Shown piece by piece: positions 2,372 through 40,323 of a stretch of DNA of 64,000 bases. Position 1 is the stretch's first letter, and each line of letters begins with the position of its first letter. The position numbers and the translations under genes were made by a program. This stretch comes from a virus. The stretch is taken from the IMG/VR virus record IMGVR_UViG_3300047454_000095; one strand, given 5' to 3'. Under the pieces are notes generated by a model. The model saw only the letters and a list, made by a program, of their open reading frames with translations, had not been told where the DNA came from and did no database searches.

Positions 2372-3071
2372 GATATAGTTCTCTAATGATATCAATTTTT
2401 TGTTGATATGCATTAAGACCTACAATATCTTCTTCAATAGTTTCCTCTGGAGCAAAGATGTAACAAGTTTTACTTTTTACTAAGATAGGATGGTATCTTA
2501 AATTATGGAAATAAGAAATCATTTCATTTACATCTTGATTAGGTTCAAACACTACCCACGGTCTAAACTTTTCTATTGTTTTCATTGCGCCTTGTATTAC
2601 AGGCCATTCATAGCCTTGCACATCAATTTTTATTAAACTACATGACTCTAAATTTTCGTCATCTAATTTTTTTACTCTAATAGTATATGAATGTTTTTTC
2701 TTTTTATTTACAATGTGTGCATTACCACAGTTATCATCACTGTCTACAAATTCTGCTTCTGTGTTTTCGTTACCAAGACCATATTCACGTATATCACCTT
2801 CGCCTTGCATATTTTTATACAAGCATTCTAAATTACGTGGACTTGGTTCGTAACTAATAACTTTTTTAAATTTGTCTTTAAATGGATACGACCATATACC
2901 AATGTTTGCACCTACATCAATAAATGTTTTGAATTCTTTAATATTTTCTAAAATTTTGCTACGAACACGTTCTTCGTATGTTGGGTTATTTTGATCTTCG
3001 TTATCAGCAACATGACTTGTAATTTTTATTTCGTTATCAGGTACCCACCAACCGTTATCTAAGTGCTTCAT
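2361..3071 (-). CDS. FkbM-family methyltransferase
   Basis: FIDVGANIG, YEPSPRN, LIKIDVQGYE. Confidence 0.85.
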   Translation of the reverse strand: MKHLDNGWWVPDNEIKITSHVADNEDQNNPTYEERVRSKILENIKEFKTFIDVGANIGIWSYPFKDKFKKVISYEPSPRNLECLYKNMQGEGDIREYGLGNENTEAEFVDSDDNCGNAHIVNKKKKHSYTIRVKKLDDENLESCSLIKIDVQGYEWPVIQGAMKTIEKFRPWVVFEPNQDVNEMISYFHNLRYHPILVKSKTCYIFAPEETIEEDIVGLNAYQQKIDIIRELYHEH

Positions 3072-9795: not shown

Positions 9796-9811
9796 TGTAT
9801 AGTATTTACTC

Positions 9812-9839
9812 AAAAAAATAGGACCCGAAGGTCCTATTT
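9812..9839 (-). terminator. Rho-independent terminator with a C(UUCG)G loop
   Basis: AAATAGGACC-TTCG-GGTCCTATTT followed by TTTT. Confidence 0.9.
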
Positions 9840-12226: not shown

Positions 12227-12667
12227 TTAGCCTTTGCGTTGGCCAGAGTGGAACATATCCTTCTCTGTAACAACCCTAAAAAAGATGCCTTTATCCTTGC
12301 ACCATGCCCTTGCGGCCTGCCATTTAGCCATGTTTAGTGCAACAGCCATTTGCTTTTGTTTATTTCTGCCTGCACTTTCCATAGTTGTTTGATTGTCTGG
12401 CTTAACTTCTATAACTTCTGCACGTTGTTTACCATTCTTATCCATGTAACTAATAAAGAAGTCTGGTACATACACCGTTGCTTTTCCTGTGAAAGGATTT
12501 ACATAAGGTATCTTTACTGCTTCACTTGCCCACTTGGCAACGTTAGGATTTTCATCGCAGAATTTCATAAATGCGAATTCCCAACTTGATCTATATAATG
12601 GTGTTTTGCGACCGATATACTTGTCTGGAAACTTTAAGTTGTAACGTCCTTGGGCGTACTTGGCCAT
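12227..12667 (-). CDS. gp4: Head completion nuclease (gp4 / TnsA-like)
   Basis: YRSSWE, WASE, YVPDF, IEVKP, KWQAARAWC motifs. Confidence 0.9.
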   Translation of the reverse strand: MAKYAQGRYNLKFPDKYIGRKTPLYRSSWEFAFMKFCDENPNVAKWASEAVKIPYVNPFTGKATVYVPDFFISYMDKNGKQRAEVIEVKPDNQTTMESAGRNKQKQMAVALNMAKWQAARAWCKDKGIFFRVVTEKDMFHSGQRKG

Positions 12668-21445: not shown

Positions 21446-21615
21446 TGAAACACAATGTAGCAGGATTAATTTTTGGAATTTTAGGTGTAATTTTTTTAGC
21501 AAAAGATATGGGTATGCATGGGAATAGTTTATTTGGTGTTAGTGAAATGACATGGATGTGGTTTACAATGGCAGTTGTACATTTCTTCCTTAACGATTGT
21601 GGGTGTAAAAAATAA
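21445..21615 (+). CDS. 56-aa two-helix membrane protein
   Basis: Not in the ORF track. MKHNVAGLIFGILGVIFLAKDMGMHGNSLFGVSEMTWMWFTMAVVHFFLNDCGCKK; TAATG overlaps at both ends. Confidence 0.75.
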   Translation: MKHNVAGLIFGILGVIFLAKDMGMHGNSLFGVSEMTWMWFTMAVVHFFLNDCGCKK

Positions 21616-23033
21616 TGCAACATTTTTATGATGGACAGATAAGAAGATATATTACTCAGATGATTAGACTCATGAGTAATTTTTCTTACAAAGACGGTGA
21701 CGGTAAACTTACACAAGTTCCGGTAATGTACGGAGATATTACACGTCAGGTTGGTCATATTCTTAGAGATAACAGTGAAAACAAAATTCCAAGTGCGCCA
21801 CGTATAGGTGTTTACATTACAGGATTAGAATTAGATAGAGATAGACTTGCAGATGCTTCATTTGTTGGTAAAGTACACTTGCGTGAAAGAGATTATGACG
21901 AAACAAATAACGAATATTTAAACACACAAGGTAAAAATGTAACAGTAGAGCGTTTAATGCCTACACCTTACAAGTTAACTGTTTCCGCTGACATATGGTC
22001 AACTAACACAGAACAAAAATTACAAATTATGGAACAGATATTAATGCTGTTTAATCCAAGTTTAGAAATACAAACAACAGACAACTACATTGACTGGACA
22101 AGTTTAAGTGTAGTTGATTTAGAAAGTGTTAATTTTAGTAGTAGGTCAATGCCTACAGGTACTGAAAGCGAGATTGATGTTGGATCGTTAACATTTACTA
22201 CACCTATATACATTTCACCACCTGTCAAAGTTAAAAAACTTGGTGTTATAACAAACATTATAATGAGTATGTTTAACGAAGACACAGGTAACGTTGACCT
22301 TGGTGCTACTATGCCTGAACTTAAACGTTACAATGACGAATTCGGCGAAGGCGTGTTTATGGAAGACAAAGACGGAACTACTACACGTAAAGATACAGCA
22401 GGACTTGCCATTACAGCATACAATGATTACGATTTACTTGTGTTAGGTAACACTGCACAACTTATACATAGAGGTGTTGTTGGTAATACTAACTGGAATG
22501 GTTTCTTTGAAGCGTTACCAGGTACATTTAGATCAGGTCTAAGTCAACTACAATTAACAAGATTAGATATTAATCAAAGTGTCAACGGTACTGTTGCAGT
22601 TAATCCAACAGATGAAACAACATTAATTATTAATTGGGACGAAGATACTATTCCAAGTGATATGGTCCTTACTGGTTCAACAGGCGATAGGAATAAGATA
22701 GATTATATTATTGATCCAACTAACTTTAATCCAACTACTATTAAATCAAACGGTGTTAGAGTATTATTATTAGGTTCTATTGGTAGTGCAACAAATACTG
22801 ATGGTGCTGATGCTTGGAAAAACAATGACGGTACAGACTTTATTGCAAGTGAAAATGATATAGTAGAATGGACTGGTACAAAATGGCAAATACTGTTTGA
22901 TTCAAGTACAGTATCTGACATCAAATTTGTAACTAACCTAAATACAAGTATCCAATACAAATGGACAGGTACAGAATGGGTCAAATCCATTGAAGGCGAG
23001 TACCGGAATGGAGCGTGGCGCATACAATTTTAA
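21615..23033 (+). CDS. gp15: Tail terminator / sheath stabiliser (gp15-like) with C-terminal extra domain
   Basis: FYDGQIRRY, VPVMYG, PTPYKL, QIMEQILMLFNPS. Confidence 0.85.
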   Translation: MQHFYDGQIRRYITQMIRLMSNFSYKDGDGKLTQVPVMYGDITRQVGHILRDNSENKIPSAPRIGVYITGLELDRDRLADASFVGKVHLRERDYDETNNEYLNTQGKNVTVERLMPTPYKLTVSADIWSTNTEQKLQIMEQILMLFNPSLEIQTTDNYIDWTSLSVVDLESVNFSSRSMPTGTESEIDVGSLTFTTPIYISPPVKVKKLGVITNIIMSMFNEDTGNVDLGATMPELKRYNDEFGEGVFMEDKDGTTTRKDTAGLAITAYNDYDLLVLGNTAQLIHRGVVGNTNWNGFFEALPGTFRSGLSQLQLTRLDINQSVNGTVAVNPTDETTLIINWDEDTIPSDMVLTGSTGDRNKIDYIIDPTNFNPTTIKSNGVRVLLLGSIGSATNTDGADAWKNNDGTDFIASENDIVEWTGTKWQILFDSSTVSDIKFVTNLNTSIQYKWTGTEWVKSIEGEYRNGAWRIQF

Positions 23034-23045
23034 ATAATTACTTGT

Positions 23046-23486
23046 ATGAGCGACAAAATCAATTGCAGTGGTGCATTATTTTATGCACTAAAAACTAAAC
23101 GTTTTTTATTCTTACATAGAACTCAAAGCAAACAGAACAATGTTTGGGGTTTGGTAGGTGGCCGTGGTGCTGTTGACGAATCGCCTATTGATGCTTTACA
23201 TAGAGAAATCAAAGAAGAAATTGGTACTACACCAAAATCAGTAAAAACTATACCTTTAGAAACTTTTGTCAGCACCGACGAAAAGTTCAATTTCCATACA
23301 TACCTAATAGTTGTTAAAGAAGAATTTATTCCTGATCTAAATGAAGAACATGATGGTTATTCTTGGGCAAGTTTTAGTAAGTATCCAAAGCCTTTGCATC
23401 AAGGTTTAAGAAACACACTACAAAACAAAACTAATATTACAAAGTTGCAGACAGTGTTTGAGTTGATTGACATATTAGAGAGTTAA
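23046..23486 (+). CDS. NUDIX hydrolase
   Basis: Nudix box GG...ES...ALHREIKEEIG; LNEEHDGY. Confidence 0.9.
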   Translation: MSDKINCSGALFYALKTKRFLFLHRTQSKQNNVWGLVGGRGAVDESPIDALHREIKEEIGTTPKSVKTIPLETFVSTDEKFNFHTYLIVVKEEFIPDLNEEHDGYSWASFSKYPKPLHQGLRNTLQNKTNITKLQTVFELIDILES

Positions 23487-23487
23487 C

Positions 23488-24738
23488 ATGATAAAAGTTT
23501 ACGGCGACATAATGCTGGACAGTTGGATTATTGGGAAAGCCAGTAGAATTAGTCCTGAAGCGCCTGTACCAGTACTAAAAGAAATTGAAAGAAAAAACAG
23601 TATAGGTGGTGCGGCTAATCTTGCACTTAATCTTAGCAACATTGTTGACAACGTTTCTTTGTTTGGTGCAGTAGGTATGGACGACGAAGGTTTTGATGTT
23701 CTAAAAATACTTGAAACAACAAATAATATAGATTGTAGCATACAATCAGATGCAGAAATTACAACTACTAAAACAAGATTAGTAGGCCAACGTGGACAAC
23801 ACATCATGCGTTGGGATAAAGAGAAAAAATACAAAGGTAAAGCACAAGCAAGATTCCTTGAAAGTGTTAACGAAGAAGATATTGTATGTTTAAGTGATTA
23901 TAACAAAGGTACCATTGGTACACATTTAGTAGAAAAACTTAATAATAAAAAATGCAAAGTTTTAGTTGATCCTAAACAAGGACCAGAAGTATACAAAGGT
24001 GCATTTCTTGTGAAACCAAACATGAAAGAATACAAAACATGGTTTGGAAAATTTAATAGAGAAGTTGCTTTCTTTGCAATCAAAGAACATGGTTGGAAAT
24101 ATCTTGTAGTAACAGACGGTGCTAATGGTATACACGTTTTAAGTGATGAATTACAATATCAACACTACAAAGAACCTGTAAGAGAAGTTGCAGATGTAAC
24201 TGGTGCTGGTGATACTGTACTTGCCGTTATTGCTTATGGTATTAAAAGAGGTATGGATGTGTTTGCCGCATGTAAGTTAGCCTGTTATGCTGGTGCAAGA
24301 TCAGTAGAACACAGAGGTGTGTATGCAATACAAACAGAAGATTTAAAAAGACAAGTAGTTTGGACCAATGGCGTGTTTGATATACTACATGAAGGACATT
24401 TTAGACTGTTAAGACATGCAAGATCAAAAGGTAGAAAACTTATTGTAGGTATTAACAGCGATGCAAGTACAAAAAGACTCAAGGGAGAAGGCAGACCTAT
24501 TAACAATCAATTACAACGTAAAATGAATCTTGAACTTTTACCATGGATTGACGAAGTTGTAATATTTGATGAAGATACTCCCATTAATTGTATTGAAAGA
24601 TTTCAACCAGACTTAATTATTAAGGGTGGAGATTACACTGTTGAAACAGTTGTAGGTCATGAACTTGCAGAAGTAGAAATTTTTCCAACAGTAAAAGATC
24701 AATCAACAACAAGTATTATAGAGAAGATGAAAATATGA
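23488..24738 (+). CDS. hldE: Bifunctional heptose-7-phosphate kinase / heptose-1-phosphate adenylyltransferase
   Basis: RISPEAPVP, GGAAN, DVTGAGDT (PfkB-type kinase) fused to TNGVFDILHEGH, GINSDAS, KGGDY (nucleotidyltransferase). Confidence 0.92.
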   Translation: MIKVYGDIMLDSWIIGKASRISPEAPVPVLKEIERKNSIGGAANLALNLSNIVDNVSLFGAVGMDDEGFDVLKILETTNNIDCSIQSDAEITTTKTRLVGQRGQHIMRWDKEKKYKGKAQARFLESVNEEDIVCLSDYNKGTIGTHLVEKLNNKKCKVLVDPKQGPEVYKGAFLVKPNMKEYKTWFGKFNREVAFFAIKEHGWKYLVVTDGANGIHVLSDELQYQHYKEPVREVADVTGAGDTVLAVIAYGIKRGMDVFAACKLACYAGARSVEHRGVYAIQTEDLKRQVVWTNGVFDILHEGHFRLLRHARSKGRKLIVGINSDASTKRLKGEGRPINNQLQRKMNLELLPWIDEVVIFDEDTPINCIERFQPDLIIKGGDYTVETVVGHELAEVEIFPTVKDQSTTSIIEKMKI

Positions 24739-25559
24739 GAATTTTAGTTACAGGTTACCAAGGATTTATTGGTTCAAATGTAGCATCATACCTAAAAGCA
24801 AAAGGACATGATGTGGAAGGCTTCCCTTGGGAAATTAATAAGTTTCCAGATGCTCAACAATACGATAGAATTATACATTTGGGTGCAATTTCAAGTACAA
24901 CTGAACGTGATGTTGAAAAGATTATGCAACACAACTATGAGTACACAATGAAGTTGATTGAAATTTGTGATATGATGGGTACTTCTTTACAATATGCAAG
25001 TTCGGCAAGTGTGTATGGAGAACTAACACACTTTAGAGAGGACTTAGAGTTAGATCCTCGCAGTCCTTATGCTTGGACAAAGTACCTTGTTGATAGATTT
25101 GTAACACAACACCTAAATGAGTTTAGAGTTAACATACAAGGCTTTAGATATTTCAATGTTTATGGTCACGGAGAAGAACACAAAGGCGATATGATGAGCC
25201 CAATTAGTAAGTTTACTAAACAAGCCAAAGAAACTGGTGTTATAAAAGTGTTCGAAGGTAGTGGTAAGTTTAAACGTGATTTTATTTGTGTTGAAGATGT
25301 TGCAGTGATGCATGAAAAAATGCTTGATGTTGATAAAAGTGGTATTTGGAACATTGGTAGTGGCGTTGCTACTTCATTTTTACAAGTTGCACAAGTTATT
25401 GCAAACAAGTATGGTGCAAAGATTGAAGAAATACCAATGCCGGAAAACATTAAGGCACAATATCAAAAATATACGTGTGCTGACAATGACAAATTAAAAG
25501 AAACTATTGAGCATAAGTGCTTTAGTGTAGGAGAATGGGTAAATGGCCAACCAAACTGA
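24735..25559 (+). CDS. hldD: ADP-L-glycero-D-manno-heptose 6-epimerase-like SDR
   Basis: TGYQGFIG, HLGAISST, ASSASVYG, YAWTK, RYFNVYG; coupled to hldE. Confidence 0.85.
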   Translation: MRILVTGYQGFIGSNVASYLKAKGHDVEGFPWEINKFPDAQQYDRIIHLGAISSTTERDVEKIMQHNYEYTMKLIEICDMMGTSLQYASSASVYGELTHFREDLELDPRSPYAWTKYLVDRFVTQHLNEFRVNIQGFRYFNVYGHGEEHKGDMMSPISKFTKQAKETGVIKVFEGSGKFKRDFICVEDVAVMHEKMLDVDKSGIWNIGSGVATSFLQVAQVIANKYGAKIEEIPMPENIKAQYQKYTCADNDKLKETIEHKCFSVGEWVNGQPN

Positions 25560-26244
25560 TTGTAAAGTTGAATGGTGGAGCGTTGTTCCTGGACTTACTA
25601 AAGTCGAACCAATCAAAGATGCAACAAAATTCATGCCTGAATGGTTCAAACATGCACCTAAGTACTTGACTGAGGACTTTGCAGACAAAGGCACTATCAA
25701 GAACTGTCCTGGTTTCATAGATTTATATAAAAATGCGTATGTTGTACCTATGTGGTGCGACTTTCACATCAAAGCAGACAATAAAAACTTTGCATGGCAC
25801 TCAAGTAATGAAAACTTTACTATGAGCCTGCACACTGACAAGCAATTTTTAGAACATGCACCACAAAATGCCAAAGATGACTTTGTATGTGTTGCAAAAA
25901 CTGATTGTCCTTGGCGTGTGCGTACAAGTCCTGGCTGGGCAATGATGCAATTACCAATGTTTTATGATTTTAACGAATATTTTACGTGTATGCCTGGTAT
26001 AACACACACGGAATGGAGCCATCAGATTAACCAACAACTGTTAATCAAAAAAGAAGGCGAATTTTTGCTTGAAAAAGGCACTCCATTAGCAATGTACGTA
26101 CCAATAAAGATTGCAAACCTTGAAACTACGGTACAAGATGAAGATGAAGAAAAATATCGTGCAAGTTTTGTAAGTAATCTAATATTTCAGAGTAAGTTTA
26201 AAGGTGCTTACAAGAAATTTAAAGAAGTATGGAGTAAAAAATGA
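25543..26244 (+). CDS. Hypothetical protein
   Basis: 233 aa with TIKNCPG and KGTPLAMY segments; coupled to neighbours. Confidence 0.6.
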   Translation: MANQTDCKVEWWSVVPGLTKVEPIKDATKFMPEWFKHAPKYLTEDFADKGTIKNCPGFIDLYKNAYVVPMWCDFHIKADNKNFAWHSSNENFTMSLHTDKQFLEHAPQNAKDDFVCVAKTDCPWRVRTSPGWAMMQLPMFYDFNEYFTCMPGITHTEWSHQINQQLLIKKEGEFLLEKGTPLAMYVPIKIANLETTVQDEDEEKYRASFVSNLIFQSKFKGAYKKFKEVWSKK

Positions 26245-26645
26245 GTAGACTTGAAGGTAAAGTAGAAAAGGGTTGGGGCTACGAACTAATATGGGCAACA
26301 ACTGACAAGTATTGTGGCAAACTTATGGTATTTGAAAAAGCAGGCAAGAAATTCTCAATGCATTTTCATAAAGAGAAGGACGAATCATGGTTTGTCAACT
26401 CAGGACGCTTCGAAGTTAAATGGATTGATACAAAAGACGCTGTGTTATACAGCAAAGAATTAAATCCTGGGGATACATGGCACAATCCACCACTACAACC
26501 ACACCAGTTAATTGCTCTTGAAGACAATAGTAGTATTAGTGAAGTTAGTACTGCTGATTCAGTGGAAGATAATTACAGAATTATACCTGGTGATAGCCAA
26601 AAAGAAGTAATTAAGAAAAATTCTCCGCCACCCACAATGCCTTAG
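26241..26645 (+). CDS. Cupin-fold protein (sugar isomerase-like)
   Basis: KGWGYE, SMHFHKEKDESW, HQL, EVST cupin metal motifs. Confidence 0.75.
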   Translation: MSRLEGKVEKGWGYELIWATTDKYCGKLMVFEKAGKKFSMHFHKEKDESWFVNSGRFEVKWIDTKDAVLYSKELNPGDTWHNPPLQPHQLIALEDNSSISEVSTADSVEDNYRIIPGDSQKEVIKKNSPPPTMP

Positions 26646-33261: not shown

Positions 33262-34296
33262 TTAAACTCCTAATGCAATAGCCAACGCTGTTGCTGTACT
33301 ATCTACGTATGCTTTGTTTGTCAATTCTTTTTCAGTCACCGGTCTTTGTTGTCCTATTGCTTTTGTGAACGTTGCGTCCGCAGGAGTTACATTTCCTATT
33401 ACAGTACTATTTAACCCATTTGAGGCATTCAACGCTAAGAACGAACCATCTCTTGCAGTAGTTTGTCCTATCGACATGTTATTTATTGATCCTATACCAC
33501 CTGTATCTAATGTTAATACTCCTGTTCCGCTTGGTGTAATTGTAACATTATCATCAACTGGACTTAATGTTACTGTATCTGTAGCAGTCAACGTCAATGC
33601 ATTTACATACATATTGCTCATTGTACCCTGTCCTACAGGGTTAATTATTACACTACCATATGCACCTTGTGGAGCAATCTGAATTTCTGCATCTTGACCT
33701 GTAAATGTAACATCACCGATAACATTTAAACTACTAAATGCACCCACACCTGTAATGGTTGGATCTGATGTAGTTATAGTTCCGTAAATAGTACCGTCAC
33801 CAGTAGCGTAATATAATGTCTCTGGTGCAAGTGCTGGAACCTTAAATGTTACAACCCCATTGGATTTACCTTGTGCTTGTAATTCTGTTAGTGTTTCATT
33901 GGTGTTTGGATCTACATAACTTAAACCATCGCTATAAAATATAACAGGAACAAGATTAATTAATGTTGCTGATTGTGCAGTTGGATCAACATAAAAAATA
34001 TTAAAAGTTAAGAAAGGAAAGTTTGCTAAATCAAATGAATACGTTGTACCTCTTACTAAACTAAATGAAGGGTTTTCCGCTGGAATTTGTGTACCTGTGT
34101 TGTATGTTGTATTCTCAATAAATGCAGATGAATTACCTTCACCTGACTGTCTCATGTAGAATCTATTTTCAACAATTTCTTCTTCTACAACAGAATATGT
34201 TAGACTTTTAAGTGTAACGTTACCTTCAGCATCAACACTAAATCCAGGACTCTTAAATCCGTGTTCTGCTTCTAACGGTATGTAGTTTACAGCCAT
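33262..34296 (-). CDS. Virion structural/fiber-like protein
   Basis: Beta-repeat C-terminal half, ends KAYVD...ALAIALGV. Confidence 0.6.
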   Translation of the reverse strand: MAVNYIPLEAEHGFKSPGFSVDAEGNVTLKSLTYSVVEEEIVENRFYMRQSGEGNSSAFIENTTYNTGTQIPAENPSFSLVRGTTYSFDLANFPFLTFNIFYVDPTAQSATLINLVPVIFYSDGLSYVDPNTNETLTELQAQGKSNGVVTFKVPALAPETLYYATGDGTIYGTITTSDPTITGVGAFSSLNVIGDVTFTGQDAEIQIAPQGAYGSVIINPVGQGTMSNMYVNALTLTATDTVTLSPVDDNVTITPSGTGVLTLDTGGIGSINNMSIGQTTARDGSFLALNASNGLNSTVIGNVTPADATFTKAIGQQRPVTEKELTNKAYVDSTATALAIALGV

Positions 34297-34311
34297 ACTA
34301 TATTCTCCTCA

Positions 34312-34731
34312 TTATGCAGGTACCAATACGTTTTGTGTTTGATAATAGTTTGCACTGAATACACATTTTGCACCACGTCCTGGTGCTGAATCATCTAATG
34401 GTTTTGCATTAACAATAATGTTTACGTAACTGTCATTAACTGTAGCAGTTACATCAAGAATTTGATTTCCTAAGTTGCTACGTCCATATACAACTAATTC
34501 TGCTGTGCTTGGACCAGCAACTACTAAACACTTAACAATCTCTTTTTGAAATGTGCTTAGATCAGCAACAATAGTGTATTCTGCCGCACAAAAATCACCT
34601 ACAAGCCATCTGTCAAGCAGTGTATCTTCTGTGATTTTCTTCCATGGTCCGTGATAACTTAAATTAGTACCGTTTTTCATTAGTACTGTGTTCTTTAAGC
34701 CTTTACCGAAAAATTTACCAATATCAAACAT
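34312..34731 (-). CDS. Hypothetical late/virion protein
   Basis: TAAATA promoter and GAGG Shine-Dalgarno. Confidence 0.55.
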   Translation of the reverse strand: MFDIGKFFGKGLKNTVLMKNGTNLSYHGPWKKITEDTLLDRWLVGDFCAAEYTIVADLSTFQKEIVKCLVVAGPSTAELVVYGRSNLGNQILDVTATVNDSYVNIIVNAKPLDDSAPGRGAKCVFSANYYQTQNVLVPA

Positions 34732-34768
34732 AATAGTCCTCTTTAGTATATTTATCGCTTAAGAAGAT

Positions 34769-36583
34769 TTAATTTTTGACTGTAATAAGTTTAGAATATT
34801 CGGGCAAATATAGGTATTCTACGTCGGATTTAGCAAGTGTACGTACAGCATCATCCAATGTTTCAACTAAAGGTTCACCACCTAAATTAAAACTTGTGTT
34901 AAACACCATAGGAACACCTGTTTTTTCTTTAAATGCTTTAATTAAATTGTAGTAGTTTTTGTTCTGCTTTTCGTTCACCGTTTGTATACGACAAGTTCCG
35001 TCTACGTGTATAATAGCAGGAATCTTTTGTTCAATGCCTGGTTGACAGTTTACAGCATACATCATTGTAGGTGAACTTTTCATACCGCGTAAGTCAAACC
35101 ATTCATGTACATCTTCTTCAAGAATAGTTCCAGCAAATGGTCTGAAATATTCTCTGCGTTTTACTTTGTTTACATGATCCTTACCATCTGGATCTGTTGG
35201 ATCATATAAGAAACTTCTGTTACCTAAAGCACGTGGACCGTTCTCACTTTGACCTTGGAATACAGCAACAATATTCTTATCAGAGATTAAATCAACAATA
35301 TATCCATCTGAAGTATCAAATACTTCTGCTTCATGCTTCTCTGCTATAATGCTAATTTCTTCGTCAGTATAATGATAATGTGGTCCGTTGTATAATGTAT
35401 CAACTGCTTCGTGTCTACTGCTGTCGTTTGTAATAAGTCTATGCTGAATCATTGCCGCACCCATTGCCGTACCAGCGTCATTACTAACAGGCTCAACATA
35501 TAAATTAATGCCTTCGTCTTTTAGTTCTTCTAAGTACCAATAATTTGCAACACAGTTTAATCCATAACCACCACTAAGAACAATATTCTTATTACCAGTC
35601 ATCTTAACTGCTTTTCTAATTAAGTCAGCAACTTGTTTTTGCGTTTGTGTTTGCACAGCATACGCCATGTCTCTTCTGTTATCTAATTTTGTAACATCTT
35701 CTTCTTGACCTTGACGGTCTCTTGTTTCTTCAATAAAGTTTTTATTAACATAAGCACCATTAGGGTATGTTGGAATAATTACATTTCTATTTGATAACGG
35801 ATTTGTTAAATCTTCTGTAAACAATTTAGGAATATTATTGTTTTCTTTACCATATGGAAATAGTCCCATAGTCTTACCTGCTTCAATAAAACTAAAGCCA
35901 CAGTATTCAGTTACTGCTTCATATGTTTTTACAATACCTGCTGTTTCACTAATAACAATTTCAGGTATAGTTCCGTCACCTTCACCGAAAAAGTCTGCGT
36001 TAAACTTTGGATATTCAGCACCAACAAGTGGACCATAAGTACCTAAATGTTTGTACACTGTTTTAATAGTTGCAGGATATTCACAAGTGTAAATGCTTTC
36101 TGTTTCCCAAAGTGTAGTTGGATTGTTAGGATCACCGCCCATGTTTGCAGTAAAGAAAGTTCCAGCACCATCTACGATAACTGCTGTTGCAGTATCAAAT
36201 CCTGAATTATAAAAACTTAATCCAGCATGTAGTTTGTGATGAAAATAACTTAGGTCAATTACTTGTGGGTGTTTAGGAAGTAACTTAGGATCTCTATCAA
36301 TAAGTCCTAACTTACGTGCAATACCTGTATAAACATCGTCTCCTGTAAAGTCAACTTGACCTGCTGTTGCTTCTAAACTTTGTGTATGTGCAATACAAAT
36401 ATAATCTAACTTGTCAGTATAATCAAGTATTTTCATCATAGATGCATACGGACCTCCGTCATACTTGTGTCTACTTAAACGTTCTTCTTCAATAGAAAAT
36501 ACTACTTCTCCGTCTTGAAGTAAACATACTCCTCCGTTATGTCCTCTGGCTATTCCTGCTATCCACAATGTTGGTTTCTTCAT
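34769..36583 (-). CDS. O-carbamoyltransferase (NodU/CmcH/TobZ family)
   Basis: EEERLSRHK, HHKLHA, VDGAG, GKTMGL, LSGGYGLNC, NDAG, GPRALGNRS, FRPFA, NTSFN. Confidence 0.93.
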   Translation of the reverse strand: MKKPTLWIAGIARGHNGGVCLLQDGEVVFSIEEERLSRHKYDGGPYASMMKILDYTDKLDYICIAHTQSLEATAGQVDFTGDDVYTGIARKLGLIDRDPKLLPKHPQVIDLSYFHHKLHAGLSFYNSGFDTATAVIVDGAGTFFTANMGGDPNNPTTLWETESIYTCEYPATIKTVYKHLGTYGPLVGAEYPKFNADFFGEGDGTIPEIVISETAGIVKTYEAVTEYCGFSFIEAGKTMGLFPYGKENNNIPKLFTEDLTNPLSNRNVIIPTYPNGAYVNKNFIEETRDRQGQEEDVTKLDNRRDMAYAVQTQTQKQVADLIRKAVKMTGNKNIVLSGGYGLNCVANYWYLEELKDEGINLYVEPVSNDAGTAMGAAMIQHRLITNDSSRHEAVDTLYNGPHYHYTDEEISIIAEKHEAEVFDTSDGYIVDLISDKNIVAVFQGQSENGPRALGNRSFLYDPTDPDGKDHVNKVKRREYFRPFAGTILEEDVHEWFDLRGMKSSPTMMYAVNCQPGIEQKIPAIIHVDGTCRIQTVNEKQNKNYYNLIKAFKEKTGVPMVFNTSFNLGGEPLVETLDDAVRTLAKSDVEYLYLPEYSKLITVKN

Positions 36584-36584
36584 A

Positions 36585-37517
36585 TTAAAATCCTACGTAT
36601 CCTATGTGATTATAATCAACTACCTCTTTTAAAATTGCTTCTTCGAAACTTAAAAGGTCGCGATTTTCATCTTTTAGTTTATCTAATAGTTCAACTGTAC
36701 TATGTTGTTTATCGTTATTTTTGCTTTTAAGGCCCAAACTTGGACGAACTACTTCGTTCAAGTAATCATAATGTTGCCAATGACTTGGGTGTGGTTCCAT
36801 CCAATCTTCATTTGTATTTGGGTCGTAAAAATCATAATGTTTTTCTTTACGTTTCCAAGCAAACAAACCTAAAGGTTCTAACCAATTTGTTTTATCTATG
36901 TTTTCGTAAACTTTTAATTCAGGTCTTTCTTTATATACGTCAACAGTATCAGTTGGTGTTTCTCCAAAGTCATTTATGTTTGGCATGTCTGTACCTAACT
37001 TATTCATATGTCCAATACTTGTCATACGCCATGTACAACCTGTGCTTTCTAATAATCCTTGTGTAAGTATTATTGCATTTTGTCCGTGCATATAATAACT
37101 ATGTTCGTCCCAGAATGTATTAATCCAGTCGTCATTATAGCAAACTTCTCTATTCATGTAATTAAAAATACTGCCTTTAGTTTTCCAACCTATTTCGTCA
37201 GTGTTTCTAATTGCATCGCCTCGCTTACCTTTAAACTCTACAGTTCTAAAAGTATGCCAGTCGTTACGTGTATGTGTACTCCATTGTACAATTACTGTAT
37301 CGTCTTTTGTAAGATTGTTTTTTACGTGGCATTCTGCAACACGTTCTGCAATAGCACGATTGCCTAAACCAGGAAAGCCCCAGTTCTCATAATGATCGAA
37401 TTCATAACCTAAGAAATCAGCATACGTTGGCCACGCATACATGGTAAAACTACAACCAAATACAAATAGTCTATTCTTTTTGTTCTGGTGCTTCTGGGAT
37501 TTCAACTCTTGTTCCAT
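36585..37517 (-). CDS. SGNH/GDSL-like hydrolase-fold protein
   Basis: FGCSFT block-I-like motif, GLGN, C-terminal EPHP. Confidence 0.5.
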   Translation of the reverse strand: MEQELKSQKHQNKKNRLFVFGCSFTMYAWPTYADFLGYEFDHYENWGFPGLGNRAIAERVAECHVKNNLTKDDTVIVQWSTHTRNDWHTFRTVEFKGKRGDAIRNTDEIGWKTKGSIFNYMNREVCYNDDWINTFWDEHSYYMHGQNAIILTQGLLESTGCTWRMTSIGHMNKLGTDMPNINDFGETPTDTVDVYKERPELKVYENIDKTNWLEPLGLFAWKRKEKHYDFYDPNTNEDWMEPHPSHWQHYDYLNEVVRPSLGLKSKNNDKQHSTVELLDKLKDENRDLLSFEEAILKEVVDYNHIGYVGF

Positions 37518-38454
37518 CTTTAACCATACTGTTCACTGACTTAACAACTAAATCTTCTATAGTGTCATTCATTGCCATAATACCTTCATTAGTTCTGTCA
37601 GACCATTCATCTATTGTAATCCTAATAGGACTATAAACTCTTGCACCTTCGCCCATGTCAAGGATGTCAAACTTAGGATTTTCAGGATAAGAAATATTTT
37701 CTTTGAATGTTGAACCAACAACAATAGTTGCTGAACAATCTAAAGCATTAACAATATGTCCGCCTACACTATCACAACCTAAGAAGTGATCTGCGGCTTG
37801 AATAATTCCACACCAGAATCTTAAATCAATGTTTTGTGGAATAGCAACAGGTGCTTTTACACCATGCTTCTGGAACTCAATAGCAATTTCACTCATAAAG
37901 ATTACACCAAAGTCTTTAGAAAGTTTTTTAACAATGTTTACTACGTTCTCTGGATCAAAACTTCTTCCGCTTGGATCACCAATCATTCCGTTTTCGTTAA
38001 CAGTTCCTCTACCAAATGGTTGGAACACAATTACTTTATCTTTTTTAGTTTTTTCTTTTACTTCTTGAATTAACTTAACACCTGACATTGCTTCTTGTTG
38101 GCTAAGTTTAATTGTAGGTCTTGGTAAATCTCTTACACCTTTATTATTAATTTCAATGTCATAACACTGTCCTAAAGACGCTTTCTGATTATAATATTCC
38201 CATACTCTATATGGTTCAGGTGTTTTTAATTCACGATCAATTAACTTATCTTCAAATAAGTTTTTGTGAAATACATCGTATGCTTTTTTGTGTAGTACAG
38301 GGTGTCCTTTATAAAAGTCCATTCCTCCTTCACATACGATAATAAAATCGTCATCTGGGTTTTCTTTATGATAGAGTTCTAAAGCAGGAATACTTGTAAT
38401 AACTCTGCCTGCTCCACCGTTAATAAAAAATGCTGTGTTTCGTTTTGTTGACAT
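37471..38454 (-). CDS. GT-B glycosyltransferase, GT9 (heptosyltransferase)-like
   Basis: GGAGRVITSIPAL and ADHFLGCDSVGGH resemble GT9 GGxGD...P and ADxFIGNDSGPMH. Confidence 0.6.
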   Translation of the reverse strand: MSTKRNTAFFINGGAGRVITSIPALELYHKENPDDDFIIVCEGGMDFYKGHPVLHKKAYDVFHKNLFEDKLIDRELKTPEPYRVWEYYNQKASLGQCYDIEINNKGVRDLPRPTIKLSQQEAMSGVKLIQEVKEKTKKDKVIVFQPFGRGTVNENGMIGDPSGRSFDPENVVNIVKKLSKDFGVIFMSEIAIEFQKHGVKAPVAIPQNIDLRFWCGIIQAADHFLGCDSVGGHIVNALDCSATIVVGSTFKENISYPENPKFDILDMGEGARVYSPIRITIDEWSDRTNEGIMAMNDTIEDLVVKSVNSMVKDGTRVEIPEAPEQKE

Positions 38455-38484
38455 TATATTTTATAGTTCCTTTTATGCAATTAC

Positions 38485-39318
38485 TTATTGTGTAGTTGGT
38501 TTTGTTTCGTCATTCGTGACATAGTCCCAAAAGAAGTGTTGTTGTCCTGTGCGTGGTACTTGTACTACCCACTTGCCATCAACTAATACTCCGCTCGGAC
38601 TACTTGTTGGTAAGTCTTCTCTTTCACCAAACTTATCACAGCAACTATCGACAGTAATAATAGGAATACCATATTGTGAACTCATCATACGTAGGTGTAC
38701 GTCATGCCATTCCATCCATAAACTGTCTTGACTGTTTCCTCTATCTCCATTTGTAGCATGTAATATAACTTCTACTTGATGTATACTTGCCATTAATGGT
38801 AGACTTGGTGCGTTAAATCTAAATCCATTACCCCAAAAATCATTACATATCATTCCGCATGTTCTCACACCGTCAAGATAATGTGTTTTAGTTGTTCCTG
38901 GTGGATCTGCTAATACTTGATCCCAACTATGATGTGGACTATCTTCCCCACCAACGATATATTGTTTGTTAGTTGCTCCAAGTAATTCGCCTTGTTTATC
39001 GTAATATCTAATTTGATTTTTTCTAATACTTCCTCTATGCTCAACATCAACCCATAATGTACCAAGTGCAATACCCATTCCTTTTGAGTTTGCATGTGTA
39101 ATTACTCTGTATGCAGATTTGGCTAAATCAGGCATACCATTTTCTAATACTAAATCAAAGTTTGGAAAATAACCTGATAGTGAACCTTCAGGTGTTAGTA
39201 ACCAGTCGCAGTTATTTTCTGCGGCCCAGTCAATTGCCTTAATGATACTTGCTTCATTCTTTTCAAGATTCTGTGTTACAGGTATTTGAGCACCCGCAAA
39301 TCTAACTGTATTACTCAT
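38485..39318 (-). CDS. Carbon-nitrogen hydrolase (nitrilase superfamily)
   Basis: Complete E-K-C triad: TPEGSLSGY, NKQY, MICNDFW. Confidence 0.9.
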   Translation of the reverse strand: MSNTVRFAGAQIPVTQNLEKNEASIIKAIDWAAENNCDWLLTPEGSLSGYFPNFDLVLENGMPDLAKSAYRVITHANSKGMGIALGTLWVDVEHRGSIRKNQIRYYDKQGELLGATNKQYIVGGEDSPHHSWDQVLADPPGTTKTHYLDGVRTCGMICNDFWGNGFRFNAPSLPLMASIHQVEVILHATNGDRGNSQDSLWMEWHDVHLRMMSSQYGIPIITVDSCCDKFGEREDLPTSSPSGVLVDGKWVVQVPRTGQQHFFWDYVTNDETKPTTQ

Positions 39319-39363
39319 ACAATTATTTAAGTATTGGGTGTAGTGTTTAGTGTGAGATTTGGC

Positions 39364-40323
39364 TTATGCAGTACCGCATGGCGAACGTGGAACATCTACT
39401 TTCCAAGCCGCATAACGTTGGCATTTGTGAACTTTAAATGTAGCACCTGTACCAGCATCAGCACCGCCGTCTTTTGCTTCGTACGTGAATGTAGCACCAG
39501 CAAATTCTTTTGCCGCTCTTCCTTCTACAATATCTTTACCATCGTTGATTGCTTGGTTACTACTTAAAGTTAAAGCAGTAATAGCACCACTGTTAACTGT
39601 TTTTACTGTAGCAATAAGATGATCAGCAATAATATAATTGTCTAAGTCTGCTTTTGCAAATTTAATTTTGTCACCTACTTCGTAATTAGAACCACCAGCA
39701 GTAATATCAACAGCAAAACTATCTCCAAAACTTACTGGAATATCTCTTAATGCTTGTCTATATGTTGCCCATTCTGTTTTAATTCCCGTAGGCATATCTG
39801 AAGTTGTTTTATCGTCTGACCAACCTAATAAAGATGTTCTGTGTCTACGTAAGTGAGCCCAAGTAATGTGTGGTTGTTTCCACGGATAGTGTGGCATTCC
39901 ACCTTTTGTACTACTTGCTACTTTAATAAATTCATCGTTGCTGTTACACTCGATGTCAAATTTTTCGTATGTATGATGTGGATCTGGATCAACGTATGTA
40001 ACATACTCTACACCATTTGGTAATGTTTCTGTAATAGTTTCGTGTTCATCTTCTTCAACATCTGCTTCCATTAGTGAACAAATAATTGGATGCTCTCTAC
40101 AATCTACTAAAACTTTTCTTAAGTTAATAGGTGCATTAAAGTCCATTCCTTGTTCTTCGTCCATGTATCCTGCAGGTGCAATCTTGTTTGTTGCTTTATC
40201 AATGAACACCCACATAGTCTCAGGACCTTCGTAAGTGTGTGTACCTTGTAATTGTTCGTTATCAAACTGACCCAGGTATTCATCTGGTTTAGGATAGTTA
40301 AATGTGTGTCTAATATTTGCCAT
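39364..40323 (-). CDS. Tail fiber assembly chaperone-like protein with extra C-terminal beta module
   Basis: LRRHRTSLLGWSD...W..YRQALRDIP motif; paralog of 41816-42520. Confidence 0.65.
   Translation of the reverse strand: MANIRHTFNYPKPDEYLGQFDNEQLQGTHTYEGPETMWVFIDKATNKIAPAGYMDEEQGMDFNAPINLRKVLVDCREHPIICSLMEADVEEDEHETITETLPNGVEYVTYVDPDPHHTYEKFDIECNSNDEFIKVASSTKGGMPHYPWKQPHITWAHLRRHRTSLLGWSDDKTTSDMPTGIKTEWATYRQALRDIPVSFGDSFAVDITAGGSNYEVGDKIKFAKADLDNYIIADHLIATVKTVNSGAITALTLSSNQAINDGKDIVEGRAAKEFAGATFTYEAKDGGADAGTGATFKVHKCQRYAAWKVDVPRSPCGTA

What the first reader, a model, noticed from the sequence alone, without database searches (positions are those of the whole stretch)
34769..39318. Four-enzyme tailoring operon embedded among virion genes
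Seen: directly downstream of the Cys-rich cassette, behind its own TAAATA promoter, lie a nitrilase-family enzyme (intact E-K-C), a GT9-like glycosyltransferase, an SGNH-like protein and a NodU/CmcH carbamoyltransferase, closely packed or overlapping. Established: NodU-type enzymes carbamoylate sugar hydroxyls, and some phage homologs carbamoylate hydroxymethylcytosine; nitrilase-family members hydrolyse or transfer amide/carbamoyl groups. Inference: late timing and position favour a pathway that builds a carbamoylated glycan on virion proteins over DNA modification.
Basis: partly seen in the sequence, partly recalled or inferred. Interest (0 to 1): 0.7.

Follow-up and report, generated by a model that had tools for sequence, protein, structure and literature searches.

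The report
Phage heptose-carbamoyl sugar-tailoring gene cassette
An uncultured marine giant phage carries a compact set of sugar-decorating enzymes, plus its own supply line for the sugar heptose, that most likely builds a carbamoylated heptose decoration late in infection; which molecule receives it (tail fibres, host surface or something else) is still open.

Summary
Four tightly packed minus-strand genes at 34769-39318 encode a nitrilase-family enzyme with an aligned E-K-C triad, a GT9-fold glycosyltransferase, an SGNH-fold protein and a TobZ/NodU-type O-carbamoyltransferase. They sit behind a TTAAATA late-promoter-like motif.

The conserved unit is three genes, not four. GT9-SGNH-carbamoyltransferase is contiguous in 68 of 72 testable related viral contigs. 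It can be inverted in place, or sit behind gp15-NUDIX instead. The nitrilase is confined to one subclade (15 of 70).

The phage encodes HldE and HldD (ADP-heptose synthesis). In cultured cyanomyoviruses the GT9-carbamoyltransferase pair directly abuts heptose genes.

The GT9-like family carries a near-invariant Arg where WaaC has its catalytic Asp. The SGNH-like family is absent from Pfam and PHROGs.

No route to hydroxymethyl-pyrimidine DNA was found in the window or in five long relatives, so DNA modification is disfavoured.

The phage is a jumbo T4-related myovirus, with its terminase closest to PA5oct. It is not a close cyanophage, and the host is unknown.

The virion-protein target remains an inference (about 40%); host envelope glycan is the main rival. 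This is a new variant of the known cyanophage "LPS gene" clusters. This scan had already noted the heptose module on this window.

The parts
39324..39329 (-). TAAATA late-promoter-like motif (TTAAATA), 5 nt before the nitrilase ATG
   Evidence: Sequence. The motif is strongly concentrated in intergenic spacers. Metatranscriptome contigs of two studies end at 39306/39307, and upstream contigs begin at 39345-39464; this is a weak hint only.
38485..39318 (-). Nitrilase-superfamily (CN hydrolase) enzyme, P0001; accessory to the cassette
   Evidence: PF00795 at 36.7 bits and phrog_36475. E44/K118/C158 align to the N-carbamoyl-D-amino-acid hydrolase motifs. The best NCBIfam hit is the NAD+ synthase glutaminase domain. 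It is present in only 15 of 70 related loci.
37471..38454 (-). GT9-fold glycosyltransferase-like protein, P0002 (phrog_8954), with Arg17 at the WaaC Asp13 position
   Evidence: Fold. 32 of 69 family representatives hit PF01075. hhalign against WaaC/WaaF gives 85% probability, with R17~D13, D228~D261 and R164~K192. G13, G14, G16 and R17 are at least 90% conserved.
36585..37517 (-). SGNH-fold protein of an uncatalogued phage family, P0003
   Evidence: AlphaFold model with pLDDT 85.5. Only SGNH/GDSL matches. G21-C22-S23, G52-N53 and H243-P244 are invariant in 48 sequences. No Pfam or PHROG hit. Tandem paralogues occur in 18 of 79 loci.
34769..36583 (-). TobZ/NodU/CmcH-type O-carbamoyltransferase, P0004
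   Evidence: PF02543 plus PF16861 and phrog_1601. PDB relatives are GdmN, NovN and TobZ at E 1e-37 to 1e-52. 62-64% identical to the S-SSM7 and Sf-FS3 enzymes.
34749..34755 (-). Canonical ATAAATA late promoter of the next gene (139 aa); marks the downstream edge of the cassette
23046..23486 (+). NUDIX hydrolase that precedes the heptose genes here and precedes the GT9 cassette in other phages
   Evidence: PF00293. L056 has gp15-NUDIX-GT9-SGNH-SGNH-carbamoyltransferase.
23488..24738 (+). HldE-like bifunctional heptose-7-phosphate kinase / heptose-1-phosphate adenylyltransferase
   Evidence: NF008454 at E 1.7e-100, TIGR02198 and TIGR02199; PfkB plus CTP_transf_like. Homologues are present in 4 of 5 long related records.
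24735..25559 (+). HldD-like ADP-glycero-manno-heptose 6-epimerase
   Evidence: TIGR02197 at E 8.3e-71.
25543..26645 (+). Two further genes of the heptose module: a phrog_7084 protein and a cupin (annotated 'cysteine dioxygenase' in cyanophages; weak WbuC-like hit)

Best explanation
This is a mobile sugar-tailoring cassette in an uncultured marine jumbo T4-related myovirus.

Proposed mechanism:
- The phage's HldE and HldD make ADP-heptose from a host-derived heptose phosphate.
- The soluble GT9-fold enzyme transfers the heptose to an acceptor in the cytoplasm.
- The TobZ/NodU-type enzyme O-carbamoylates a sugar hydroxyl, using carbamoyl phosphate and ATP. Pseudomonas does this on core heptose II (7-O-carbamoyl, WapO).
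- The SGNH-fold enzyme adds or removes an ester group on the same glycan.
- In this subclade the nitrilase-family enzyme adds an amide or carbamoyl hydrolysing step, or an ammonia-supplying step.

I take the acceptor to be a virion fibre or baseplate protein, modified before assembly.

Shown here: the folds and families, the catalytic motifs, the conserved gene order, and the genomic link to heptose genes.

Inferred: ADP-heptose as the donor, the order of the steps, late timing, and above all the acceptor.
For: Enzyme identities.

The cassette is a unit:
- GT9-SGNH-carbamoyltransferase is contiguous in 68 of 72 testable IMG/VR loci spanning 40-99% identity.
- It is kept together when inverted or relocated.

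Link to heptose:
- HldE and HldD are in the window.
- HldE is present in 4 of 5 long relatives.
- The GT9-carbamoyltransferase pair is directly followed by heptose genes in S-SSM7, P-SSM2 and S-CAM3.
- The cassette and the heptose genes use the same gp15-NUDIX slot in different phages.

Chemical precedent: 7-O-carbamoyl heptose made by a NodU-type enzyme in the Pseudomonas core (PMC8005017).

Pointers to a protein acceptor:
- All the enzymes lack hydrophobic segments.
- No priming transferase, flippase or polymerase was recognised among the window ORFs that were scanned.
- The usual neighbours are fibre, chaperone and baseplate genes.
- TibC, a cytoplasmic protein O-heptosyltransferase, is a close structural match at Z 18.2.
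- The catalytic Asp that WaaC uses on Kdo is replaced by Arg, so the acceptor is probably not a canonical LPS core.
- The family is acidic, with median pI 6.0 against 9.0 for WaaC. This is a weak pointer.

Transcription: metatranscriptome contigs of four studies carry the cluster at 99% identity or more.
Against: - No data show a glycan on any virion protein of this or any related phage.
- GT9 enzymes with known function act mostly on LPS cores.
- Cultured relatives carry these genes inside large clusters long annotated as LPS genes (PMC3037559).
- The cassette is not always among fibre genes, nor on their strand.
- The Arg-for-Asp change could mean altered chemistry or even lost activity.
- The promoter motif is one base off consensus, and timing is untested.
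- RNA-library contigs may include DNA and give no timing.
- No enrichment of N-x-S/T sequons was seen in the fibre proteins.
- GmhA and GmhB were not found, so the heptose supply is incomplete on the sequence available.
Confidence: 0.42

Rival explanations
1. Host envelope remodelling. The same enzymes add a carbamoylated heptose to a host glycolipid or LPS-type acceptor at the cytoplasmic face of the inner membrane. This changes the cell surface, for example to stop progeny or competing phages adsorbing to infected cells and debris.
For: - GT9 family members of known function are mainly LPS heptosyltransferases. WaaF and WaaC match at Z 20.0 and 17.8.
- Carbamoyl-heptose is a known LPS core feature (PMC8005017).
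- Cultured relatives hold these genes in large 'LPS' clusters alongside many other glycosyltransferases (PMC3037559).
- No GmhA was found, which suggests a host that already makes heptose phosphates, that is, one with heptose in its envelope.
- The window has a second glycan-tailoring cluster at 179-3071.
Against: - Arg replaces the Asp that WaaC uses to activate the Kdo hydroxyl.
- The family is acidic, unlike membrane-associated WaaC.
- No membrane-associated partner genes are in the window.
- For the cyanophage carriers, the host LPS is reported to lack Kdo and heptose (PMC4390846).
- A late-promoter-like context fits poorly with superinfection exclusion.
Confidence: 0.3
2. DNA hypermodification. 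The glycosyltransferase and the carbamoyltransferase decorate a hydroxymethylated base in phage DNA to escape restriction.
For: - Phage NodU-type enzymes carbamoylate 5-hydroxymethylcytosine (PMC8670742).
- Phage GT-B enzymes can put heptose on 5hmC (bioRxiv 10.1101/2023.12.21.572611).
- An Arg in the active-site loop could bind a phosphate backbone.
Against: - No thymidylate-synthase-like dCMP/dUMP hydroxymethylase, Tet/JBP dioxygenase or C5-methyltransferase was found in five related records of 72-268 kb. These records are 21-75% complete, and the Tet/JBP control did not ring.
- None was found among the window ORFs that were scanned.
- In PMC8670742 the DNA-acting enzymes co-occur with thymidylate-synthase homologues, while those on unmodified contigs are flanked by glycosyltransferases, as here.
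- The known DNA heptosyltransferase resembles T4 beta-glucosyltransferase, not GT9.
Confidence: 0.08
3. Small-molecule tailoring. The cassette decorates a diffusible metabolite or a nucleotide sugar, such as a heptose-containing natural product, rather than a macromolecule.
For: - All solved relatives of the carbamoyltransferase (TobZ, GdmN, NovN) tailor small molecules.
- In L069 and S-SSM7 the genes lie beside a tryptophan halogenase, 2OG-Fe oxygenases and cupins.
- ADP-heptose feeds heptose natural products (PMC9978623).
Against: - No scaffold-forming enzyme (NRPS, PKS, cyclase) is in the window or in the loci examined.
- The core trio usually has only structural genes as neighbours.
Confidence: 0.1
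4. The GT9-like protein is catalytically dead or has a non-transferase role such as a scaffold or lectin, and the gene cluster has no joint chemistry.
For: - The WaaC catalytic Asp is replaced.
- GT9-fold proteins without known catalysis exist, for example the plant NDH subunit matched at Z 18.2.
Against: - The donor-side motifs are invariant: D228 and H233, with R164-S165 at least 90% conserved.
- The Arg itself is near-invariant across sequences 25-46% identical, which points to selection for function.
- Linkage to a carbamoyltransferase and to heptose-synthesis genes is tight.
Confidence: 0.07

Closest known systems
Cyanomyovirus 'LPS gene' clusters: T4-GC 302 (hypothetical) plus T4-GC 303 (Nol-like carbamoyltransferase), followed by heptose genes T4-GC 304-308, in P-SSM2, S-SSM7, S-CAM1/3 and Sf-FS3 (PMC3037559)
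   Same: - Orthologous GT9-like proteins (47-58% identity) and carbamoyltransferases (47-64%) lie side by side.
- They sit next to tail-fibre genes and ADP-heptose genes.
- Their function is likewise untested.
   Different: - Here an SGNH-fold gene, sometimes two, lies between the pair, and a nitrilase precedes it. tblastn of the collection of deposited phage genomes finds no homologue of the SGNH protein in any of them.
- The heptose genes are 8 kb away and lack gmhA.
- The carrier is a PA5oct-like jumbo phage without psbA.
- The cyanophage GT9-like proteins have disordered C-terminal tails.
Pseudomonas LPS inner core: WaaC/WaaF heptosyltransferases plus the WapO (PA5005) carbamoyltransferase, which makes 7-O-carbamoyl-L-glycero-D-manno-heptose (PMC8005017)
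   Same: A GT9 enzyme, ADP-heptose supply and a NodU-type carbamoyltransferase are encoded together. This provides the chemical precedent for a carbamoylated heptose.
   Different: - That system is bacterial, membrane-associated and acts on Kdo2-lipid A.
- The phage enzyme has Arg where WaaC has Asp13.
- The phage set has no heptose kinases or other core genes, and it has added SGNH and nitrilase enzymes.
Bacterial autotransporter heptosyltransferases (TibC, AAH)
   Same: - A GT9-related GT-B fold (Z 18.2, rmsd 3.8 over 263 residues).
- Cytoplasmic O-heptosylation of beta-rich adhesin proteins with ADP-heptose. This is the working model for fibre modification.
   Different: - The alignment starts at TibC residue 90, so the TibC N-terminal region has no counterpart.
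- The iron site and dodecamer were not tested.
- Sequence identity is only 11-12%.
Phage 5-hydroxymethylcytosine carbamoyltransferase (5cmdC pathway; PMC8670742)
   Same: The same two-domain carbamoyltransferase family (PF02543 plus PF16861), carried by phages.
   Different: That enzyme is linked to thymidylate-synthase-like hydroxymethylases and deaminases. None was found here. Here the neighbours are glycosyltransferase-type genes.
SGNH/GDSL hydrolases and glycan O-acetyl-transferases or esterases (TesA, PatB, Axe2)
   Same: The fold (Z 10-12.4), a Ser in block I and a His-Pro in block V, both invariant.
   Different: - Block I reads G-C-S rather than G-D-S.
- The acidic residue sits two, not three, positions before the His.
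- The protein has about 100 extra residues.
- No Pfam model detects it.

Membership tests
Glycosyltransferase family 9 (ADP-heptose heptosyltransferases) | Two-Rossmann-domain GT-B fold closest to solved GT9 enzymes | tested here: met
   VIA Z 22.4 (3tov, rmsd 3.8 over 279 residues), 20.0 (WaaF) and 17.8 (WaaC). The next GT-B families score 12.3 or less. Foldseek E 6e-10.
Glycosyltransferase family 9 (ADP-heptose heptosyltransferases) | Sequence match to Pfam PF01075 | tested here: inconclusive
   P0002 itself gives no hit at E 0.01 or better. 32 of 69 family representatives do, best E 1.2e-8. hhalign of the family against WaaC/WaaF gives 85% probability and E 6e-6.
Glycosyltransferase family 9 (ADP-heptose heptosyltransferases) | N-terminal catalytic Asp (WaaC Asp13) that activates the acceptor hydroxyl. 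The role of this residue is taken from my knowledge of WaaC. | tested here: not met
   Arg17 aligns to Asp13. G13, G14, G16 and R17 are at least 90% conserved in 69 sequences of 25-46% identity.
Glycosyltransferase family 9 (ADP-heptose heptosyltransferases) | C-terminal donor-binding motifs (WaaC Asp261 in the D-x-G-x-x-H-L motif; Lys192) | tested here: met
   D228 and H233 are invariant and align to Asp261 and His266. R164 aligns near Lys192.
Glycosyltransferase family 9 (ADP-heptose heptosyltransferases) | Use of ADP-heptose as donor | not testable with these tools
   Only context is available: HldE and HldD in the window, and adjacency to heptose genes in cultured relatives.
SGNH/GDSL hydrolase superfamily | SGNH flavodoxin-like fold | tested here: met
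   pLDDT 85.5. Z 12.4 and rmsd 3.0 over 162 of 179 residues of TesA. All top matches are SGNH enzymes.
SGNH/GDSL hydrolase superfamily | Block I Ser nucleophile and block V His | tested here: met
   G21-C22-S23 and H243-P244 are invariant in 48 sequences. Their positions in the chain match blocks I and V. Spatial proximity in the model could not be measured.
SGNH/GDSL hydrolase superfamily | Canonical G-D-S and D-x-x-H spacing, and detection by Pfam SGNH-clan models | tested here: not met
   Block I reads G-C-S. The acidic residue is at -2 from the His. None of the 48 members hits any SGNH-clan Pfam model even at E 1.
Nitrilase (CN hydrolase) superfamily | Pfam PF00795 above the gathering score, and the Glu-Lys-Cys triad | tested here: met
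   36.7 bits against a cutoff of 23.2. E44, K118 and C158 align to the catalytic motifs of N-carbamoyl-D-amino-acid hydrolase.
NodU/CmcH/TobZ O-carbamoyltransferases | Kae1-like N-terminal and YrdC-like C-terminal domains, both above Pfam cutoffs | tested here: met
   PF02543 at 87.8 bits (cutoff 24) and PF16861 at 201.9 bits (cutoff 27). Full-length matches to GdmN, NovN and TobZ. The His/Asp metal motifs and the GPRALGNRS, FRPFA and NTSFN motifs are visible in the alignments.
NodU proper (nodulation factor 6-O-carbamoyltransferase) | NCBIfam equivalog NF041651 above cutoff | tested here: not met
   144.4 bits against a cutoff of 1000. It is a family member, not a NodU orthologue.
Autotransporter heptosyltransferases (TibC/AAH) | TibC-specific N-terminal region | tested here: not met
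   The structural alignment covers TibC residues 90-391 only; nothing corresponds to residues 1-89.
Autotransporter heptosyltransferases (TibC/AAH) | Iron site and dodecameric assembly | not tested
   No oligomer prediction was run, and no metal-site analysis was possible with the outputs available.
Phage 5hmC carbamoylation / DNA sugar hypermodification systems | Co-occurrence with a thymidylate-synthase-like hydroxymethylase, or with a C5-methyltransferase plus a Tet/JBP dioxygenase | tested here: not met
   0 of 5 long related records for each of PF00303, PF00145 and PF12851. None among the window ORFs scanned. Caveats: the records are 21-75% complete, and the PF12851 control did not ring.

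The most novel reading that the evidence does not exclude
A large group of marine phages post-translationally heptosylates its own tail-fibre or baseplate proteins. It uses a GT9-derived enzyme that has swapped the catalytic Asp for Arg, then carbamoylates and esterifies the sugar. This would be the first heptose- and carbamoyl-bearing virion glycan, and a phage-specific branch of protein glycosylation that tunes host recognition or shields fibres.
Probability: 0.35. Interest if true: 0.8.

Novelty: new variant of a known kind. Interest (0 to 1): 0.55.

Why it matters
The 'LPS genes' of marine T4-like phages, including the carbamoyltransferase and the heptose genes, have been catalogued since 2005-2010 without any assigned function. 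One paper even asked whether they are stuffer DNA (PMC3037559).

This work contributes three things:
- The core is a discrete, widely spread and mobile three-enzyme cassette tied to ADP-heptose supply. More than 560 IMG/VR stretches encode the SGNH-like protein, and more than 3000 GT9-like proteins were found in the metagenome collection.
- It contains an uncatalogued SGNH-fold family.
- Its GT9 enzyme has an altered active site.

That gives concrete, cheap experiments on phages that are already in culture. If the acceptor is a virion protein, phage glycosylation would extend well beyond mycobacteriophages and would link phage sugar metabolism to host range. If the acceptor is the host envelope, it would be a late-acting surface-remodelling system.

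Tried and rejected
- Megablast of the region against phage records found nothing. The nearest DNA is an IMG/VR fragment at 99% identity.
- An HMM profile of the close GT9-like family found no PDB relatives. The first hhalign, with the shallow alignment, gave only 1.9% probability. A deeper alignment was needed.
- Pfam on all 48 SGNH-like members at E 1 found nothing relevant. The atlas lead to DUF6071 could not be confirmed.
- No longer, fused forms of the SGNH-like protein were found; this is weak evidence.
- N-x-S/T sequons are not convincingly enriched in the fibre proteins (z at most 2.1).
- No gmhA-like gene was found in the window by similarity to the cyanophage copies, and no SIS domain in five relatives. 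No psbA in those relatives. All of these records are incomplete, so the absences are provisional.
- The residue test of PMC8670742 (TobZ W408, G421, R423) could not be applied. The text does not give the discriminating residues, and no TobZ alignment was printed.
- My initial reading of the phage as a cyanomyovirus was dropped after the terminase and gp15 searches.
- Sigma-70-type promoter and terminator scans were at background level.
- Metatranscriptome contigs show presence in RNA libraries. They cannot give timing, strand or level.
- No complex prediction was run, because the report does not claim that any two of these proteins bind.

Full report
**What is there**

The finding's coordinates match four minus-strand ORFs exactly: 38485-39318 (277 aa), 37471-38454 (327 aa), 36585-37517 (310 aa) and 34769-36583 (604 aa). 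They are packed with a 30-nt gap, a 47-nt overlap and a 1-nt gap. No terminator-like site lies between them.

A TTAAATA motif lies five bases before the first ATG. The window's canonical late motif is ATAAATA. It occurs ten times on this strand, and eight of those lie in the short spacers upstream of gene starts, seven of them within 24 bases of the ATG. TAAATA occurs 39 times on both strands, 13 of them in the 2.7% of the window that is intergenic (binomial P about 1e-11). A canonical ATAAATA follows the last gene of the cluster and serves the next gene, so the cluster is bracketed by late-type motifs. The motif in front of it is one base off consensus, and timing is not shown.

**The four proteins**

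- *P0001* is a nitrilase-superfamily enzyme (PF00795, 36.7 bits against a cutoff of 23.2). Its best solved relative is N-carbamoyl-D-amino-acid hydrolase (E 2e-5), with E44, K118 and C158 aligned to the PE, RK and ICND catalytic motifs. Its best NCBIfam hit is the glutaminase domain of NAD+ synthase.
- *P0002* has no Pfam hit, but its model (pLDDT 81.6) matches GT9 structures. VIA Z is 22.4 for 3tov, 20.0 for WaaF, 18.2 for TibC and 17.8 for WaaC, then drops to 12.3 or less for other GT-B families.
- *P0003* has no Pfam or PHROG hit. Its model (pLDDT 85.5) matches only SGNH/GDSL enzymes, with Z 12.4 and rmsd 3.0 over 162 of the 179 residues of TesA. G21-C22-S23, G52-N53 and H243-P244 are invariant in 48 homologues of 43-96% identity. 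These fit SGNH blocks I and V, although block I reads G-C-S rather than G-D-S.
- *P0004* is a two-domain TobZ/NodU/CmcH-type O-carbamoyltransferase (PF16861 201.9 bits, PF02543 87.8 bits). The metal-binding and carbamoyl-adenylate motifs are visible in alignments with GdmN and another solved carbamoyltransferase. It is not a NodU orthologue.

**The GT9-like enzyme is atypical**

A search of 1.8 billion representatives found 537 clusters of this family. In an alignment of 69 of them (25-46% identical to P0002), 32 hit PF01075. The family profile aligns to E. coli WaaC/WaaF with 85% probability.

In that alignment the donor-side residues are kept: D228 and H233 are invariant and correspond to WaaC D261 and H266, and R164 lies near K192. 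The position of WaaC Asp13, which I know as the proposed catalytic base, is occupied by Arg17. Arg17 and the glycines before it are at least 90% conserved. The family therefore belongs to the GT9 fold but fails one defining catalytic feature. That points to a non-canonical acceptor or mechanism rather than decay.

**What the conserved unit is**

569 IMG/VR stretches encode a relative of the SGNH-like protein, and 79 loci were fetched.
- The GT9-like gene lies directly upstream in 69 of 73 testable loci.
- The carbamoyltransferase lies directly downstream in 73 of 78.
- Both hold in 68 of 72.
- 18 loci have a tandem pair of SGNH paralogues.
- The nitrilase is present in only 15 of 70, all within the clade whose SGNH protein is at least 71% identical to the window's.

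In several loci the trio is inverted in place between the same fibre-module genes. In L056 and its relatives it follows gp15 and a NUDIX gene. In the window, that slot holds HldE and HldD. The trio is therefore a discrete cassette. Its orientation and position relative to the fibre genes vary, which weakens the argument from position.

The collection of deposited phage genomes holds no homologue of the SGNH-like protein in any record. Cultured S-SSM7, P-SSM2, P-SSM5, S-CAM1/3 and Sf-FS3 nevertheless have the GT9-like gene and the carbamoyltransferase side by side. In S-SSM7, P-SSM2 and S-CAM3 that pair lies directly after tail-fibre genes and directly before genes annotated as heptose kinase/adenylyltransferase, phosphoheptose isomerase and epimerase. 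These are the 'LPS clusters' of Sullivan et al. (PMC3037559), whose function was left open.

**Heptose supply**

On the plus strand at 23046-26645 the window encodes a NUDIX hydrolase, HldE (NF008454, E 1.7e-100), HldD (TIGR02197, E 8e-71), a phrog_7084 protein and a cupin. HldE homologues occur in 4 of 5 long related records. No gmhA-like gene was found in the window or in those records, all of which are incomplete.

A second set of glycan-type genes lies at 179-3071: a nucleotide-diphospho-sugar transferase, two methyltransferases including an FkbM type, and a TupA-like ATP-grasp. None of these proteins has a hydrophobic segment.

**Which phage**

The large terminase is 53% identical to that of Pseudomonas jumbo phage PA5oct and 51% to Agrobacterium phage Atu_ph07. 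gp15 is 32-34% identical to the same group. Related contigs reach 268-380 kb at 47-75% estimated completeness. None of five long relatives has psbA.

This is an uncultured marine jumbo T4-related myovirus of unknown host. It shares its fibre module and this cassette with cyanomyoviruses.

**What it most likely does**

Carbamoylated heptose has a direct precedent. Heptose II of the Pseudomonas LPS core carries a 7-O-carbamoyl group attributed to the NodU-type enzyme WapO/PA5005 (PMC8005017).

The simplest chemistry is therefore:
- ADP-heptose synthesis by HldE and HldD;
- heptose transfer by the GT9-like enzyme;
- O-carbamoylation by P0004;
- an ester-level edit by the SGNH enzyme.

The role of the nitrilase is least clear. 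It resembles both decarbamoylases and ammonia-producing glutaminase domains. In Sf-FS3 its homologue sits inside a glycan cluster next to an NAD-synthetase-like amidating enzyme and a UDP-glucose dehydrogenase, which favours an ammonia-supplying or amide-editing step.

**The acceptor is the open question**

For virion proteins:
- all the enzymes appear soluble;
- there are no lipid-carrier or export genes;
- the usual neighbours are fibre, chaperone and baseplate genes;
- TibC offers a structural precedent for cytoplasmic protein heptosylation;
- the Asp that acts on Kdo has been lost;
- the family is acidic.

For the host envelope:
- this is what GT9 enzymes are known to do;
- the cultured relatives carry large LPS-type clusters;
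- the apparent reliance on host heptose phosphates.

DNA modification is disfavoured. No thymidylate-synthase-like, Tet/JBP or C5-methyltransferase gene was found in five relatives. The DNA-acting carbamoyltransferases co-occur with thymidylate-synthase homologues, whereas those on unmodified contigs are flanked by glycosyltransferases (PMC8670742). The reported 5hmC heptosyltransferase resembles T4 beta-glucosyltransferase and sits next to such base-modifying genes (bioRxiv 10.1101/2023.12.21.572611).

A small-molecule product cannot be excluded. Some relatives place the genes beside a tryptophan halogenase and 2OG oxygenases.

**Expression**

Metatranscriptome assemblies from four studies carry the cluster at 99% identity or more. 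Some of their contigs bridge the SGNH/carbamoyltransferase and nitrilase/GT9 junctions. Contigs of two studies end at 39306/39307, and upstream contigs begin at 39345-39464. That is a weak hint of a transcript boundary at the TTAAATA spacer. RNA libraries can contain DNA, and contigs give neither timing nor level.

**Verdict**

A carbamoyl-heptose tailoring pathway is well grounded, and DNA modification is unlikely. The four-gene 'operon' is really a three-gene cassette plus an accessory gene. The virion-protein target is a reasonable but untested inference.
- This is a new variant of a known kind. The gene pair and the heptose link are already in the literature on cyanophage 'LPS' genes. The SGNH-like family, the Arg-substituted GT9 active site and the behaviour as a cassette are new.

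Noticed in passing
window 179-3071 (minus strand): A second cluster of glycan-tailoring genes lies downstream of UvsX. It comprises a nucleotide-diphospho-sugar transferase (PF03407/GT34-like), a Methyltransf_24 protein, a TupA-like ATP-grasp and an FkbM-type methyltransferase. Together with the heptose module and the cassette, at least 13 genes of the 64-kb window look sugar-related.
   Followed up: partly
window 8206-9813 and 21615-23033: The phage is not a close cyanomyovirus. The large terminase is 53% identical to Pseudomonas jumbo phage PA5oct, and gp15 is 32-34% identical to PA5oct and Sinorhizobium phage Phosso. Related contigs imply genomes of roughly 350 kb, and none of five has psbA. 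The host is unknown.
   Followed up: partly
window 23046-23486; L056:8495-8944: The same NUDIX gene follows gp15 in both phages. It precedes HldE/HldD in the window and the GT9-SGNH-SGNH-carbamoyltransferase cassette in L056. It may act on ADP-heptose or on the ADP product.
   Followed up: no
L022:9090-10891, L056:9998-11799, L061, L083, L077:9180-10870: Tandem paralogues of the SGNH-like gene (32-53% identical to P0003) occur in 18 of 79 loci. In L077 a pair sits next to a family-B DNA polymerase, without the GT9 or carbamoyltransferase genes.
   Followed up: partly
L069:4359-18089: One related contig strings together GT9-like, carbamoyltransferase, an SGNH paralogue, a 2OG-Fe(II) oxygenase, SGNH, a tryptophan halogenase, a cupin, HldE and HldD. 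This is a natural-product-like assortment, also seen in S-SSM7.
   Followed up: no
L098 (Synechococcus phage Sf-FS3 186147-198938): The nitrilase homologue of this cultured phage lies among fucosyltransferases, a sugar O-methyltransferase, an NH3-dependent NAD synthetase-like gene and a UDP-glucose 6-dehydrogenase. This suggests a glutaminase-plus-amidotransferase pair that makes a uronamide.
   Followed up: no
window 12227-12667 (minus strand): An ORF with a TnsA-like endonuclease N-terminal domain (PF08722, E 4e-23) sits between structural genes. It may be a homing or mobile-element remnant.
   Followed up: no
window 39306-39464: Contigs from four metatranscriptome runs all break in this interval, which contains the TTAAATA motif and the nitrilase start. 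Contigs over the Cys-rich genes upstream are longer.
   Followed up: no
window 33262-34731: The 139-aa and 344-aa genes that follow the cassette are conserved next to it in most related loci. The 344-aa protein ends in a fibre-like 'TNKAYVD' motif, is Thr-rich (13%) and has 9 N-x-S/T sequons against 5 expected. Both are candidate acceptors to test.
   Followed up: partly
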